Below, piece after piece: positions 30,001 through 57,000 of a stretch of 64,000 nt of DNA. The position numbers were made by a program. Each line of letters opens with the position of its first letter. Positions within the stretch are counted from its first letter, which is position 1. The stretch is from Octopus vulgaris (lineage: Eukaryota). Location of the stretch: assembly GCA_951406725.2 (NCBI GenBank), contig OX597818.1, forward strand, positions 98,642,001 to 98,706,000. Direction: 5' to 3'.

Positions 30001-33000
30001 AATGAAAGAGAAAGAGAAGGAAAGAGAGAGTGAGAGTAAAGAGCTAGAGAGATAGAGAGAAGGAGGAAATACATGTGCTTTTAAGAATAGGATCAGCATG
30101 GTAGCAGTCTGATTTCTATATGACCGTGTATGAATACGTTCTAGAAATTTAAGATTTAAGCAGAGAAGGAAGGAGAAACGTTTATTATTATTATTATTAT
30201 TATTATTATTATTATTATTATTATTATTATTATCATCATCATCATCATCATCATCATCATCATTATCTATCTTATGATTAAGGCGGTGAGCTAGAAAAAT
30301 GCTTAGCGATATTTCGTATGCCTTTATGCTCTGAGTTAAAATATTGCCGAGGTTGACTTTGCCTATCATCCGTTTGGGGTCGATAAAATAAGTACCAGCT
30401 GAGTACTGGGGTCGATGTAATCGATTAGCCCTCCCCCCAATTTCAGGTCTTCTGCCTATATTAGAGGGGGCTGTTACTATTGTTATTAATTATCAGGTAA
30501 TACTTGATTCGGTGGAGCTCTGAAAAGTATTTTCCTTTTTGCGTAGGTCGACTTTATCTCTCATAAAATAAATACCTGTTAAATACACGTTTGAATCAAT
30601 TGAGTACATCTGATCCTGAAAATATTCTCTATTGTAAAAGTAACAATATTTTCTCTAAATTTTATAAGTGGTTATTTGTGAGGAAACGCCAACGATACTG
30701 ATGAGGTGACATATCTTACCATCTTCAGAATTGGAGGCACATGATCTAGTGGTTAGAGAAGCGGACTCGCAGTCGAAGGATCGCGGGTTCGAATCTCAGA
30801 TCGGGCAATGTGTGTGTTTATGAGCGAAACATCTAACCTCCACGCGGCTCCTGCAGAGGGTAATGGTGAACTTCTGCTGACTCTTTCGCCACAACTTTCT
30901 CTCACTCTTTCCTCCTGCATCTTGCAGCCCATCTGCGACGGACCAGCGTTCCGTCCAGGTGGGGAACCTATACGCCAAGAAACCGGGAAACCGGCCCTTA
31001 TGAGCCAGGTATGGCTCGACAAGGAACAAGCAACAAAAACATCTTTAGAATTGGATCTCTTTCTCTTTCTCTTTTACCTGTTTCAGTCATTTGACTGCGG
31101 CCATGCTGGAGCACCGCCTTTTAGTCGAGCAAATCGACCCCGGGACTTATTCTTTGTAAGCCCAGTGCTTATTCTATCGGTCTCTTTTGCCGAACCGCTA
31201 AGTGACGGGGACGTAAACACACCAGCATCGGTTGTCAAGCAATGCTAGGGGGACAAACACAGACACACAAACACACACACACACACACACACACACACAT
31301 ACACATATATAACATATATACAACAGGCTTCTTTCAGTTTCCGTCTATCAAATCCACTCACAATCCGGGGCTATAGCAGAAGACACTTGCCCAAGATGCC
31401 ACGCAGTGGGACTGAACCCGGAACCATGTGGTTGGTTAGCAAGCTACTTACCACGCAGCCACTTCTGCGCCTATATATATCATTATATTCACTGTTATAT
31501 AGAACTTGCACAAATAGACTTCCATTCTAGGTTGCCCACCTTAAAAGACCTTCCATGTCTTTCAGTTTGCATTGTTTGTTATAACTCAATATTATTGAGG
31601 TGTTCTAAGGTTGCAAGCTGACAGAATCGTTAGTACACCTGGCGAAATGCTTAACGCCATTTCGACCGTTTTTATGCTCTAAGTCCAAATTCTGCTGATG
31701 TCGACTTTGTCTTTCATCCTTTCGGGTTTGATAAAATAAGTACCAGATATTGTTCTTGTGCCATATTACTAAATGTTCTGTTATCGAAATTATATGGTTT
31801 TCATTATGTATATCTCGACTTTTATAAATTGTTACTGTTCTTACCTACATCTGGTCCAGACTTTCTCCCACATAAATGTTACATCAATTTATATTGCTTC
31901 TAAGAATCCATATACCCTATTTTAATGATAGTGCCTGACATTGATATTTCTATAAGTAAAAATAGGATTGTCCCAGTCTATGGTTTACTGTTCATAGCTA
32001 TTCACTAGCTTCTATCTGTAGACTTAACATTAATGCAGTGAATTTAATGACTATATTTACACACTATCCATTGACGATATTACTTAAAATTATTACATAG
32101 GAGTATTTATTCAGATGTCAATAATAACACAGCTATGCACTGTTTCCAAATACTAAGTTTTTAAAAAAAGTCTACATTTCACTCTTCCACCATTTTAAAC
32201 ATCTTTGTCGTGATCGATGTCATGTAATAATCAAGAATTACGATTAATATCATCTCTCAGCCAGATAGTTTATAATCTCCCTTGATCAGTGGACATCTCA
32301 TATGGAGGGGTTGTCTATACTAGCTTTCTGAATTTTATATTGAATTCTCTTTCCCCCAGCAATTTGAGTTATTAAGCGAATGTCGTCTGTTATTATAGAG
32401 TTGAAATTCCGGAACAAGTTTTGTATTTCACATTAGTTTGATAAATACATTCCTGCAACATAGTAATTGATTCCATACTATCAAAAACAGGGTGTGAAAT
32501 AGGGATGGGACATAGTTTAAGCAGACGTAACTAGAACTGGAACAAGCACGTTTATAACAAATAAATAATTAATGTTACAAATAGAATGTTTTATCATTAT
32601 GAGACACCCTGTATATTCGTCTACATCCTTCCCGCAAAATTTAGACCTAGAGAATGCAAAGTGTAAATAATAAGAGTGTAATATTATCTCTAATCGGGTA
32701 AATCTAGTGATGACCTCACCTGCGATATAGTTTCGAATTTTCATTTGAGTTCTGTTGACTGCCATTATATTAACACAGTTCTCGAGGAAAGGTCGAAAAG
32801 TATCACTTTTGTTGTATTTGTGTAAGTGATCGATTTTACTGGCTTTTATTTATTTGATATTTATTTAACTTTGTTATAAGTTTTATTATGTCTTTTTTTT
32901 TTTTTTACTTTTTCAGAGAAATCGTATCCGATATCTACTAAGAGCAGGACATATTTTGCCAAAGTTAATGAACAAATAGAAATCGTATATGAATTTTACT

Positions 33001-54000: not shown

Positions 54001-57000
54001 CAGATTTTGTGGAGTTAACACCGGAGATATCACCCACATCATAAGAAGTTGTCCGAAAATGTCTACCAATGAGACATGATGTTGTAACTAGGACACTGTA
54101 TGACGTGATCTGTTGAAAGGACAACCACGTGGACAACTCTGTGGAAGCCATTGCCCCTCATAAAAAAAAGTGAGTATTGGTGGAATGTCACAGTGAAAAC
54201 CTGAATAAAATATAAACACAAATGACCTGATATAATGACTTAGGATAAGAACAGAAACTGTGTGGAGTTGTGGAAATCAGCTGCCCAGCGGATGTTAACA
54301 TAAAGCTGAAGATCAGGAAAAACTTTTGAAGAATCTACTGTTACTTTATCCAGACTAGAAGCTCAGGTTTATACTTGTAACACACTGCCTAAATACCAAT
54401 CTTGAGAAATTAGGCTCCTCAAAACCAGAAAGGAAGAAGCTGATCCGAAGACATTAGATTTAATCCAGAACTGTAAAAGTCTGTAAAACTAAGTATATGC
54501 ATGAGAAGACCTGCATAAAATCAAAACAAACAAATCTGCACGAATACAAACATACAAAAATACTTTGTTGTTGATTTTGAAATTCTATTGAAGGATCTTT
54601 GGATCTAGGTTAGAAACCGGCTCTTTCTGTGTTGGCAAGAATTTATGAAATAAAACTGAATAATGACATACATGCATGCATACATATAACACACACACAC
54701 ACACACACACACTTATATATATATATATATATATATATATATATATATACATTGTATATTTTATATTTTGCTTCAGTCGTTTCAGTCTTTACAGAAAAGT
54801 CAGATGCCAGTAAAAATATTTGAAGGGAACCCGCCTTTAGGTAAGTATAGACATAATATGAATTTATTTCGTTAACAGACAACTCATGAGACTCGTTTAT
54901 GCAATTATAGAGTATATATTGTTAATAAGGAAGAAGAAATAATAGACGAATTTACGTTTAAAGTTATTTGAAATATTTTCGTATATTCTAGAAAAAATGT
55001 TTCAGTGGTGCTCGATTCCATTTCTATTGCTGTTAGCTGTTGAGGAACAATGCTCAGGCATTGTAAAACATTGTACTATCCGCAGAGGTAAATTTCCAGA
55101 GGAAACCATAGTAACCTATAATATGTTACGTCATGGCCTGTAGTCTGTCGCTTACTTGATCCATCTTAATCGCACTGCACCATACTTTAAAAAGTTATCT
55201 CTCTTGTAGATCACACGCCAAAGTAGTACTTTCTTTCACTCTCTCTCTCTTTCTCTGTCTGTCTCTGTATGTCTGTCTCTCCCTCTTTCTCTCTCTTCCT
55301 CCCTCTTTCTCTTTCTCTCTCTTTCTCTCTCTCTCTCTCCCCCTTACCTTTTGTGACAATGCCACACTTGTTCTCCTTGAAGCTCTTTTGGTTCTTTACT
55401 TCTCTCGTCACTCATATTATTTCTCATTTTGCTCTTCCAGGCATTACACTAACCTGGTTCTTTCTCCTGAGAACTTCGACTCCTTGGAATTCCCTCCATG
55501 CACACGTTTTGCTGCAGTCGACTGACAACTATTGAAGAGGAAAGTTTCTGCACGTCATTATCTCCGGTCTTCGATGTCATGTGCAAAGACCCATTCCTGC
55601 ATAACAATACAATCATCCAATAAAAAAAAATTGATAAAAAGAAAGCGAAATTTCAACTTCAAGTTATATAAACATGTATTTGTTTTGCTTTATATTTTGT
55701 CGTTTCTAAATCTAAACTTTACTGTTGCCTAATACTTCTTAATTGTTCAATATACTTTCAAAAACATTTTAAACATGGAGTGGCTGTGTGGTAAGTAGCT
55801 TGCTAACCAACCACATGGTTGTGGGTTCAGTCCCACTGCGTGGCATCTTGGGCAAGTGTCTTCTGCTATAGCCCCGGGCCGACCAATGCCTTGTGAGTGG
55901 ATTTGGTAGACGGAAACTGAAAGAAGCCTGTCGTATATATGTATATATATGTATATATGTATATATATATATATATATATATATATATATATATATATAT
56001 ATATATATATATATGTGTGTGTGTGTGTGTGTGTGTGTGTGTTTGAGTGTCTGTGTTTGTCCCCCTAGCATTGCTTGACAACCGATGCTGGTGTGTTTAC
56101 GTCCCCGTCACTTAGCGGTTCGGCAAAAGGGACCGATAGAATAAGTACTGGGCTTACAAAGAATAAGTGCCGGGGTCGAGTTGCTCGACTAAAGGCGGTG
56201 CTCCAGCATGGCCGCAGTCAAATGACTGAAACAAGTAAAAGAGTAAAAAAGAGAAAGAGTAAAGAAGAAAAAAAATGGGAAATGGGTTCCACTAAAAACA
56301 CTCGAAAAACTTAATAAGACTGCATTTTTATAAAAAGAAAATGATGGGGAAAATTTACTTCTGCGTAAAATGGAATTGCGATGAACTTAATAAACTCGTA
56401 TTCAGGATGTTTAAATATCCACAAAATAACGTTTTGCTACATTTTCCTCCAGATTTTTTTAACAGGATTTTTTTAATAGGCGCAGGAGTGGCTGTGTGGT
56501 AAGTAGCGTGCTAACCAACCACATGGTTTCGGGTTCAGTCCCACTGTGTGGCATCTTGGGCAAGTGTCTTCTGCTATAGCCCCGGGCCGACCAATGCCTT
56601 GTGAGTGGATTTGGTAGACGGAAACTGAAAGAAGCCTGTCGTATATATGTATATATATATGTGTGTGCGTGTGTGTGTGTGTGTGTGTGTGTGTGTGTGT
56701 GTGTGTGTGTGTGTGTGTGTGTGTGTGTGTTTGTCCCCCTAGCAGCGCTTGACAACTGATGCTGGTGTGTTTACGTCCCCGTCACTTAGCGGTTCGGCAA
56801 AAGAGACCGATAGAAAAAGTACTGGGCTTACAAAGAATAAGTCCCGGGGTCGATTTGTGAAGAATTATCGCAAGTCTCGTTCAGTAGTAAACAAGATTGA
56901 AAGGGGAGTAACTCCTGTATAAGATATAATACTCACTTCCCCTTTGGCCAAGCGCGCGTGTATGAGCGCACGAAGTCCATGTATCTATATGAAACGAGTC

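What the first reader, a model, noticed from the sequence alone, without database searches (positions are those of the whole stretch)
32917..54840. Hidden multi-exon gene for a divergent 3xIg single-pass cell-surface receptor
Seen: four exons spread over 18 kb of repeats, all with canonical splice sites and phase 1-1, plus a probable tail exon. They splice into one ~375-aa open frame: Ig-Ig-Ig-TM-short tail, with seven N-glycosylation sequons, all in the ectodomain. Established: one domain per phase-1 exon is the IgSF signature. Fast-evolving single-pass receptors underlie invertebrate recognition systems, for example Hydractinia Alr1/Alr2 (three Ig-like domains plus TM) and the Biomphalaria GRC/PTC transmembrane clusters. 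Inference: I do not recognise it as any conserved IgSF gene, so it may belong to a lineage-specific immune, allorecognition or neural recognition family. Function is unproven.
Basis: partly seen in the sequence, partly recalled or inferred. Interest (0 to 1): 0.85.

Follow-up and report, generated by a model that had tools for sequence, protein, structure and literature searches.

The report
Octopus three-Ig-domain membrane protein gene
This is a real octopus gene for a cell-surface protein with three antibody-like domains, one of a small gene cluster so far seen only in octopuses; a sister species already lists it as uncharacterised, and its function is unknown.

Summary
The exons are real and the model holds. 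A 396-aa RefSeq protein, 'uncharacterized protein LOC118763527 [Octopus sinensis]', maps colinearly onto the window at 99-100% identity.

- A signal-peptide exon at 20037-20094 was missed.
- Exon D2 has a tandem acceptor (39882 or 39885).
- The coding sequence stops at 54823, not 54840.

All five introns are GT-AG and phase 1. The seven sequons are confirmed.

Per-exon AlphaFold models of D2 and D3 (pLDDT 80 and 86) match Ig V/I domains in Foldseek. D1 is homologous to D3 (hhalign probability 98.4%). No Pfam Ig model reaches its cut-off.

A profile search of 1.84 billion protein representatives found only Octopus relatives (five family proteins) plus one Ig-repeat protein. There are three paralogous loci. 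One starts head-to-head inside this window, at 1767-1712 on the minus strand.

The tail is short and has no tyrosine. Function is untested; a cell-surface adhesion or recognition role is the best inference. The gene is not hidden: it is annotated but uncharacterised. It is a new member of a known kind, of modest interest.

The parts
20037..20094 (+). Coding exon 1: start codon plus a hydrophobic signal-like peptide; donor GT at 20095, phase 1.
   Evidence: P0006 aa 1-21 match 20037-20099 at 95%; sequence read; the junction codon with 32917-32918 gives the Lys seen in P0006.
32917..33219 (+). Coding exon 2: Ig-like domain D1, 100 aa. The B-strand Cys is replaced by Tyr. One sequon.
   Evidence: identical to P0006. 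hhalign D1 versus D3 gives probability 98.4%, E 4.9e-15. Cys positions and sequons. D1 was not folded itself.
39882..40205 (+). Coding exon 3: Ig-like domain D2, V-like. Two sequons.
   Evidence: AlphaFold pLDDT 80.1. Foldseek matches to MOG, TCR V, PD-L1 IgV, CAR and CD4. Pfam Ig_3 E 0.022, below cut-off. Atlas hits 0.91-0.94, all named ones in the Ig clan.
46370..46675 (+). Coding exon 4: Ig-like domain D3. Four sequons.
   Evidence: AlphaFold pLDDT 86.1. Foldseek matches to CRTAM, CD96, titin/obscurin, ZIG-8, IgLON and Dpr/DIP.
50706..50858 (+). Coding exon 5: transmembrane helix, a juxtamembrane Cys kept in all family members, and the start of the cytoplasmic tail.
   Evidence: Kyte-Doolittle 19-residue mean up to 3.62. 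Invariant Cys356 column in the family alignment.
54777..54823 (+). Coding exon 6: last 15 residues and the TGA stop (54821-54823). The exon continues as 3' UTR.
   Evidence: The opening four residues and the near-terminal Asn-Ile of this exon are shared with paralog P0008. The first AATAAA downstream is at 55619.
1712..1767 (-). First coding exon (signal peptide) of the paralog LOC118763564, head-to-head with this gene. ATG at 1767-1765, donor GT at 1711-1710, phase 2. The rest of that gene lies off the window.
   Evidence: P0012 aa 1-18 match at 100% and P0007 aa 1-18 at 94%, to 1767-1714 on the minus strand. Sequence read.
29907..29928 (+). Alternative first coding exon used by the O. vulgaris database model P0005. 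It has no signal peptide, lies inside intron 1, and is followed by donor GT.
   Evidence: Exact match of the first six residues of P0005, with GT after the 22nd base.

Best explanation
The window (Octopus vulgaris-type sequence) carries an intact gene with six coding exons. It encodes a 396-aa type I membrane glycoprotein: signal peptide, three Ig-like domains (D1 and D3 are duplicates of one type; D2 is a V-like type), one transmembrane helix, and a tail of about 40 residues. It is the 1:1 ortholog of O. sinensis LOC118763527.

It belongs to a cluster of three paralogous loci so far seen only in Octopus. One paralog starts head-to-head 18.3 kb upstream. A second is inferred to lie downstream on the same strand.

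Shown:
- the gene model;
- the Ig fold of D2 and D3;
- the D1-D3 homology;
- the restriction of detectable relatives to Octopus;
- four conserved Cys per domain.

Inferred:
- The protein sits on the cell surface and binds a partner through its ectodomain, most likely via the membrane-distal D1. The partner could be another copy, a paralog or an unrelated ligand.
- Each domain carries a second disulfide (C'/C'' region to strand D) in addition to the B-F one.
- The juxtamembrane Cys is a lipidation site.
- The tail has no tyrosine and the helix has no charged residue. It therefore acts as an adhesion or ligand-type molecule, or signals through an associated partner, rather than through ITAM/ITIM-type motifs.
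For: - Colinear 99-100% match to a 396-aa RefSeq protein. Exon lengths sum to 1191 nt, and all introns are GT-AG and phase 1.
- D2 model: pLDDT 80.1, pTM 0.72. D3 model: pLDDT 86.1, pTM 0.79. Both are all-beta.
- Foldseek PDB lists are dominated by Ig V or I domains of surface receptors, antibodies and titin. E from 5e-4, TM 0.40-0.69.
- D1-D3 hhalign probability 98.4%.
- Of 7 hits in 1.84e9 representatives, 5 are the Octopus family and 1 is an I-set repeat protein with 19 matched I-set stretches.
- The named relatives are all from O. vulgaris, O. sinensis or O. bimaculoides.
- The family alignment keeps signal peptide, D1, D2, D3, TM and tail colinear. The Cys, Trp and juxtamembrane Cys are invariant.
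- Seven sequons lie only in the ectodomain. The TM hydropathy is strong. There is no Tyr in the tail.
- The paralog's first exon lies on the minus strand of the window.
Against: - No Pfam Ig model reaches its gathering score on any family member. The best is Ig_3 at 25.6 bits against a cut-off of 30, on the chimeric P0005.
- Sequence searches of PDB give nothing significant (best E 0.065; 0.079).
- Foldseek E-values and TM-scores are modest.
- D1 was not folded. It lacks the B-strand Cys, and its Atlas scores are all below 0.9.
- No expression data could be examined.
- The O. vulgaris annotation gives a different, chimeric product using cryptic donors inside D1 and D3. If that model rests on transcripts, not all transcripts encode the 396-aa protein.
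- Intactness in O. sinensis says little, because the split is recent.
- No ortholog of this particular gene was found in O. bimaculoides.
- Binding, disulfides, lipidation and localisation are untested.
Confidence: 0.8

Rival explanations
1. It is one member of a fast-evolving, polymorphic recognition-receptor cluster (immune, allorecognition or parasite-interaction). This would be analogous to the Hydractinia Alr genes or the Biomphalaria GRC/PTC single-pass clusters. On this reading, ectodomain diversity is the functional property.
For: - Clustered paralogs share only 25-41% identity per domain, and detectable relatives are restricted to Octopus.
- The O. bimaculoides/O. sinensis orthologs of the neighbouring paralog are only 303 of 389 identical, and 68 of 99 in D3. 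Genome-wide nucleotide similarity of O. vulgaris and O. bimaculoides is given as 92.4% (PMC6472339, passage). By my arithmetic, that amino-acid divergence is at or above a neutral expectation of roughly 15-17%.
- PTC2 genes are likewise single-pass, clustered, lineage-restricted and under 50% alike among paralogs (PMC7494358, passages).
Against: - Only three loci were found, not a large expansion.
- No polymorphism data exist here. The one cross-species comparison of this gene shows 1 change in 357 residues, which is uninformative at about 2.5 My.
- The tail has no Tyr and hence no ITAM or ITIM, unlike many Alr proteins.
- There is no Fn3-like spacer.
- The 92.4% baseline comes from alignable regions and is biased.
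- Orthology of P0007 and P0012 is assumed.
Confidence: 0.12
2. It is a neural or epithelial cell-adhesion molecule of the small-IgSF type. Functionally it would resemble nectin/Necl, IgLON, Dpr/DIP or ZIG proteins, working by homophilic or paralog-heterophilic D1-D1 contacts.
For: - Foldseek neighbours of D3 include ZIG-8, Dpr/DIP, IgLON, Kirrel, DLAR and Necl-2/CRTAM complexes. ZIG-8 and CAR appear for D2.
- The architecture is three Ig domains, a TM helix and a short tail.
- Paralogs in a cluster could pair.
Against: - There is no sequence-level link to any of those families.
- Structural neighbours at TM 0.5-0.69 only show a generic Ig fold.
- No expression data are available.
- No known tail motif was seen.
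Confidence: 0.3
3. The locus is a decaying or non-functional duplicate whose open frame survives only because it is young. The RefSeq model would then be an ab initio artefact.
For: - D1 has lost the canonical B-strand Cys that its paralogs keep.
- No O. bimaculoides ortholog was found.
- The O. vulgaris annotation did not recover the clean model.
- Open frames of 100 codons are not rare in this window.
Against: - A frame of 396 codons over six exons is kept, with all ten splice sites canonical, in a genome region where the mean stop-free run is 18 codons.
- Paralogs at 25-41% identity still share every structural Cys and Trp and the exon plan. The duplication is therefore old and the copies have been under constraint.
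- The sequons are confined to the ectodomain.
Confidence: 0.06

Closest known systems
uncharacterized protein LOC118763527 [Octopus sinensis] (P0006, 396 aa)
   Same: 1:1 ortholog. It is colinear over all six coding exons. D1, D3 and the TM exon are identical, and D2 differs at one residue.
   Different: It comes from another, very close species. It carries no functional annotation, so it names the gene but does not explain it.
Octopus paralogs: LOC118763564 (O. sinensis, O. vulgaris) / LOC106876419 (O. bimaculoides), and the unnamed P0008 locus
   Same: They share the signal peptide, D1, D2, D3, TM and short-tail plan. They also share four Cys plus a Trp per domain and the juxtamembrane Cys. 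They sit on the same chromosome-scale contigs, and one starts inside the window.
   Different: Per-domain identity is only 25-41%. The paralogs keep the D1 B-strand Cys. LOC118763564-type tails end differently and contain a Tyr. P0008 has a longer, Tyr-rich tail.
CD28/CTLA-4-type IgV domain (two disulfides)
   Same: Human CTLA-4 has Cys21-Cys92 and Cys48-Cys66 linking the two sheets (PMC12092003, figure legend). D2 here has Cys at 24, 49, 67 and 92. D3 has Cys at 24, 45, 63 and 85. The inner pair is spaced by the same 18 residues.
   Different: CTLA-4 has one domain, not three. There was no sequence hit, and CTLA-4/CD28 are not among the listed Foldseek neighbours. Disulfide pairing here is inferred, not shown. 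The ligand-binding loop and tail motifs of that family (recalled) were not looked for by any search.
Hydractinia Alr family (allorecognition complex)
   Same: Both are single-pass proteins with tandem, sequence-atypical V-set/I-set Ig domains that mostly escape Pfam, encoded in a cluster. In Alr domain 1 the B-strand Cys is replaced by an aromatic residue, as in D1 here (PMC9546547, passages).
   Different: Most Alr proteins have one V-set and one I-set domain; only two domain 3 sequences are reported. They also have an Fn3-like spacer, many have ITAM or ITIM tails, and there are 41 loci. Here D3 abuts the membrane, the tail has no Tyr, there are three loci, and no cnidarian hit appeared.
Biomphalaria GRC / PTC2 clusters of polymorphic single-pass (TM1) genes
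   Same: Both are clustered, lineage-restricted single-pass membrane proteins with low similarity among paralogs (PMC7494358, passages).
   Different: PTC2 proteins have no known domain and are defined by extreme allelic divergence. Here the domains are Ig-like and polymorphism is unknown. No gastropod hit appeared.
Nectin / Necl (CADM) three-Ig adhesion molecules
   Same: Both have three Ig domains, one TM helix and a short tail. A Necl-2/CRTAM complex is among the D3 structural neighbours.
   Different: There is no sequence-level match. The PDZ- and FERM-binding tail motifs of that family (recalled, not from a call) are not evident in a tail ending in Lys-Asn-Ile.

Membership tests
Immunoglobulin superfamily (Ig-like fold) | Two-sheet Greek-key beta sandwich of 7-9 strands | tested here: met
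   D2 and D3 models are all-beta with 7-8 strands, pLDDT 80.1 and 86.1. Their Foldseek lists are dominated by Ig V/I domains. D1 is covered only by homology to D3 (hhalign probability 98.4%).
Immunoglobulin superfamily (Ig-like fold) | B-F disulfide with a Trp in strand C (the 'pin') | tested here: inconclusive
   Cys24, Trp34/35 and Cys92/85 fall in predicted strands B, C and F in D2 and D3. D1 has Tyr in place of the B-strand Cys, while its paralogs keep the Cys. Pairing itself was not observed.
Immunoglobulin superfamily (Ig-like fold) | Match to a curated Ig profile at its gathering score | tested here: not met
   Ig_3 scores 15.7 bits (cut-off 30) on D2 and nothing on D1 or D3. Family members reach at most 25.6 bits for Ig_3, 19.7 for V-set and 14.4 for C2-set_2.
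Immunoglobulin superfamily (Ig-like fold) | One domain per exon, flanked by phase-1 introns (established knowledge of IgSF genes) | tested here: met
   D1, D2 and D3 are each one exon of 303-324 nt, and all five introns are phase 1.
Hydractinia Alr family | Sequence homology to Alr proteins; Fn3-like spacer between the last Ig domain and the TM helix; ITAM or ITIM in many tails | tested here: not met
   There was no cnidarian hit among the 7 hits. D3 ends a few residues before the helix. There is no Tyr in the tail. Features taken from PMC9546547.
Hydractinia Alr family / Biomphalaria GRC-PTC clusters | Extreme allelic polymorphism within populations | not testable with these tools
   Only one haplotype (the window) and one sister-species protein were available.
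Biomphalaria GRC/PTC TM1 clusters | Homology to those gastropod genes | tested here: not met
   No gastropod protein appeared among the hits. PTC2 genes are said to have no known domains.
Nectin/Necl (CADM) | Sequence membership (V-C2-C2 ectodomain profiles) and tail motifs | tested here: not met
   No such protein or profile was matched. The tail-motif comparison rests on recall.
CD28/CTLA-4 family | Single IgV domain with B-F and C'-D disulfides | tested here: inconclusive
   The Cys spacing matches (against PMC12092003). However, there are three domains, no sequence or listed fold match, and the pairing is unproven.

The most novel reading that the evidence does not exclude
The three clustered, head-to-head and tandem genes form an octopus-specific, rapidly diverging surface-recognition system. 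It is built from an unusual four-cysteine Ig domain. Its ectodomain variation would discriminate self from non-self, pathogens or conspecific cells, making it a cephalopod counterpart of the cnidarian Alr or snail PTC clusters.
Probability: 0.12. Interest if true: 0.65.

Novelty: new member of a known kind. Interest (0 to 1): 0.3.

Why it matters
Lineage-restricted surface proteins are candidates for the cell-recognition functions behind cephalopod novelties and invertebrate immunity. This family has no curated profile. None of its three locus identifiers appears in the open full-text library searched.

In practical terms, the O. vulgaris database models for two of the three loci look wrong. 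One (P0005) is a chimera of two genes. The other (P0009) lacks its signal peptide and D1. A corrected model is therefore useful for expression atlases.

By itself, though, an uncharacterised three-Ig membrane protein is an ordinary thing to find in an animal genome.

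Tried and rejected
- **Joined model:** The exons were handled one by one. The joined reading was judged only by mapping database proteins onto the window and by exon arithmetic.
- **The listing of cluster members:** Source names for P0008, P0010 and P0011 therefore stay unknown.
- **PDB sequence searches** with the three-domain profile and the family profile: only chance-level rows, best E 0.065 and 0.079.
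- **Atlas search for D1:** all scores below 0.9, so leads only.
- **Further family exons or relics in the window:** tblastn found none. Domain HMMs run over 2674 ORF segments found none beyond the three exons, with the next best at E 0.33. A 14-residue minus-strand look-alike at 32524-32565 is chance level (E 0.74; 2.3).
- **Open-frame length as evidence:** rejected, because long open frames are common in this window.
- **P0011** (CBM6/GDSL protein, E 5e-5): treated as spurious.
- **D1-D2 and D2-D3 profile comparisons:** not significant, with probabilities 3.3% and 10.2%.
- **Closed or irrelevant collections:** Other cephalopod genomes were therefore not scanned at DNA level.
- **Paper supplements:** closed, so gene lists in octopus transcriptome papers could name these loci unseen.

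Full report
**1. What is in the sequence**

Each is preceded by a pyrimidine tract and an AG. The four internal exons end in GTAAGT or GTATGT. The window has no N.

The three large exons translate to 100, 106 and 101 residues (P0001-P0003). The fourth gives 50 residues with a strongly hydrophobic run: the Kyte-Doolittle 19-residue mean reaches 3.62.

In this window an open frame is not evidence by itself. There are 89 stop-free frames of 100 or more codons, against 9.9 in shuffles; many of these lie in microsatellites or transposon relics.

**2. Independent confirmation of the gene model**

I searched with the D2 exon peptide alone, asking for longer proteins. This returned 2 proteins from 37 candidates:
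- 'Hypothetical predicted protein [Octopus vulgaris]' (P0005, 397 aa, 100% identity);
- 'uncharacterized protein LOC118763527 [Octopus sinensis]' (P0006, 396 aa, 99%).

P0006 maps colinearly on the window. It covers 20037-20099 (signal-like peptide), then D1, D2, D3, the TM exon and the last 15 residues at 54776-54820.

Its ATG is at 20037 and its donor GT is at 20095, phase 1. Its junction with 32917-32918 gives the Lys present in P0006.

That corresponds to acceptor 39882 rather than 39885, a TAG-CAG tandem acceptor.

The frame ends at the TGA at 54821-54823, so the GT at 54841 lies beyond the stop.

The six pieces sum to 1191 nt, which is 396 codons plus the stop. All five introns (12.8, 6.7, 6.2, 4.0 and 3.9 kb) are GT-AG and phase 1. 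The four exon peptides differ from P0006 at 1 of 357 positions.

The joined reading rests on this mapping and arithmetic.

**3. The O. vulgaris database model is a chimera**

P0005 departs from the clean model in four ways:
- It starts at an alternative exon inside intron 1 (29907-29928, no signal peptide).
- It leaves D1 at an internal GTGAGT.
- It leaves D3 at an internal GTAAC.
- It continues into D1 and D2 of a different, 35-39% identical protein that is not in the window.

That second part equals the start of P0008, a 303-aa D2-D3-TM-tail protein. I infer that a paralog lies downstream on the same strand, beyond 64000.

**4. Fold**

Pfam gives only a sub-threshold Ig_3 hit on D2 (E 0.022, 15.7 bits against a cut-off of 30) and nothing on D1 or D3. 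No family member reaches a gathering score.

I folded the exons separately, each with the matching domain of the paralogs as a shallow alignment.

| Domain | Rows in alignment | pLDDT | pTM | Predicted strands |
|---|---|---|---|---|
| D2 | 5 | 80.1 | 0.72 | 7 |
| D3 | 6 | 86.1 | 0.79 | 8 |

Foldseek against PDB gave the following.
- For D2: 9 matches at E of 1e-3 or better. Named chains include MOG, TCR V domains, PD-L1 IgV, CD4, CAR, JAML, BTNL2 IgV and ZIG-8 IG1. There are also many antibody or nanobody entries whose titles name the antigen. TMq is 0.44-0.61.
- For D3: 0 matches at E of 1e-3 or better; the best is 1.1e-3. Listed chains include CRTAM, CD96, titin and obscurin domains, ZIG-8, DLAR, IgLON, Dpr/DIP and Kirrel. 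TMq is 0.40-0.69.

These scores are modest but uniform in kind.

A local profile comparison of D1 against D3 (4 sequences each) gives probability 98.4%, E 4.9e-15 over 89 columns. D2 is not significantly like either.

The Atlas look-alike search supports Ig for D2. Scores are 0.91-0.94, and all ten best named hits are in one clan. For D1 it gives only leads below 0.9.

**5. Domain features**

Every domain in the family keeps four Cys and a Trp. The exception is D1 of this gene, where Tyr replaces the B-strand Cys.

In the models the first and last Cys fall in strands B and F. The inner pair falls just after C' (at C'') and in the strand I read as D.

The inner pair is 18 residues apart. Human CTLA-4 has the same layout: Cys21-Cys92 and Cys48-Cys66 (PMC12092003, figure legend). 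A second disulfide is therefore a reasonable inference, but no call shows it.

D1 of this gene also has an extra Cys five residues after the F-strand Cys. Its role is unknown.

Seven sequons lie in the ectodomain, and none in the TM/tail. The tail has no Tyr. A Cys at the cytoplasmic end of the helix is invariant in the family.

**6. Relatives**

I ran a profile of the three window domains against 1.84 billion representatives. It found 7 proteins at E of 1e-3 or better:
- P0006 and P0005;
- P0007 (1.8e-24), P0008 (2.7e-21) and P0009 (7.8e-11);
- a 1674-aa protein (P0010) with 19 matched I-set stretches in Pfam (1.8e-10; Pfam I-set E 2e-233);
- a CBM6/GDSL protein (P0011) that I regard as spurious.

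Names:
- P0007 is LOC106876419 of O. bimaculoides.
- P0012 is LOC118763564 of O. sinensis. It sits on the same 135.9-Mb contig as P0006.
- P0009 is the O. vulgaris copy. It sits on the same 147.5-Mb contig as P0005.

A family-profile word search returned 6 of 6919 candidates. Five are Octopus proteins and one is an unnamed 120-aa fragment.

So three loci are known, all in Octopus. No ortholog of this particular gene was seen in O. bimaculoides.

This absence is limited to annotated proteins in those libraries. No cephalopod genome could be scanned at DNA level.

**7. Cluster arrangement**

Residues 1-18 of P0012 and P0007 match the window at 1767-1714 on the minus strand, at 100% and 94%. The ATG is at 1767-1765 and a GT donor follows 1712.

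The paralog LOC118763564 therefore starts head-to-head with this gene. The two start codons are 18.3 kb apart.

Domain HMMs over 2674 ORF segments of the window found exactly the three domain exons and nothing else (next best E 0.33).

**8. Rate of change**

- Paralogs share 25-41% identity per domain.
- The O. bimaculoides and O. sinensis orthologs of the neighbour share 303 of 389 residues. By region: D1 90/117, D2 84/97, D3 68/99.
- O. vulgaris and O. bimaculoides are reported as 92.4% alike at nucleotide level in aligned regions (PMC6472339, passage).

By my own rough arithmetic, about 8% neutral change would alter some 15-17% of residues. On that basis this family evolves at or above the neutral rate.

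This is a lead, not a test. The baseline is biased towards conserved regions, orthology is assumed, and no codon alignment was possible.

**9. Comparison with known systems**

The protein works like a small IgSF surface molecule. It is not a member of any named family that I could test.
- **Hydractinia Alr.** These proteins share atypical Ig sequences and clustering. They also have an Fn3-like spacer, ITAM or ITIM tails and 41 loci, and most have two Ig domains rather than three (PMC9546547, passages).
- **Biomphalaria PTC2.** These genes share clustering, a single pass, lineage restriction and low paralog identity. They have no known domains and are defined by allelic hyperdiversity (PMC7494358, passages).
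- **Nectin/Necl.** The resemblance is architectural only.

Literature searches found no paper holding the locus identifiers (0 papers). Topic searches found nothing on such an octopus family (listings only). Supplements were closed.

**10. Verdict**

The gene is annotated but uncharacterised in a sister species, and it is mis-modelled in the O. vulgaris records. It is a new member of a known kind.

Function remains open. The best-supported reading is a cell-surface adhesion or recognition glycoprotein without autonomous tyrosine-based signalling. The recognition-cluster reading is possible but untested.

Noticed in passing
window 1712-1767 (-): This is the first coding exon (signal peptide) of the paralog LOC118763564, oriented head-to-head with the gene under study. 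The remainder of that gene lies off the left edge of the window.
   Followed up: yes
window 28903-28971 (-) and 18938-19021 (-): The O. vulgaris database model of LOC118763564 (P0009) begins with two exons here. One lies inside intron 1 of the gene under study and one lies upstream of it. They replace the signal peptide, and the model lacks D1. It looks like an annotation artefact or an unusual 5' variant.
   Followed up: partly
window 29907-29928 (+), 33021 and 46504: The O. vulgaris model P0005 uses an alternative first exon without a signal peptide. It also uses cryptic GT donors inside the D1 and D3 exons, then reads through into the next paralog.
   Followed up: partly
window 43688-44233 (+) and 2884-3168 (+): These are mariner-type transposase relics. 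Pfam gives Transposase_1 at E 5.5e-10 and Mos1 HTH_48 at E 2.2e-17. The first lies in intron 3. Seven of the ten intron/flank ORFs scanned gave no Pfam family. One more had only a chance-level row.
   Followed up: partly
window 25300-28500 (-): A run of long minus-strand ORFs in intron 1 looks to me, from recalled motifs, like a broken reverse transcriptase. Pfam did not confirm it at E of 0.01 or better.
   Followed up: partly
window about 1212-1502, 4011-4312, 16776-17066, 17956-18249, 31163-31463, 42466-42833, 55701-56150, 56485-56824, 57167-57488, 61689-62126: There are at least ten copies, on both strands, of a roughly 370-nt SINE-like element with an internal TA/CA microsatellite. Copies are 72-93% alike.
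   Followed up: partly
window 61111-61215 (-) and 62957-63030 (+): Rfam gives a 5S rRNA-like match (39.8 bits, gathering score 38) and a tRNA-like match (34.2 bits, gathering score 29). ARAGORN finds no tRNA. They are probably repeat-derived.
   Followed up: no
window 33172-33186 (D1 exon): D1 has an extra Cys five residues after the F-strand Cys. The downstream paralog shares this, but LOC118763564 does not. Because the B-strand Cys is lost in this gene, the pairing of these two Cys is unclear.
   Followed up: no
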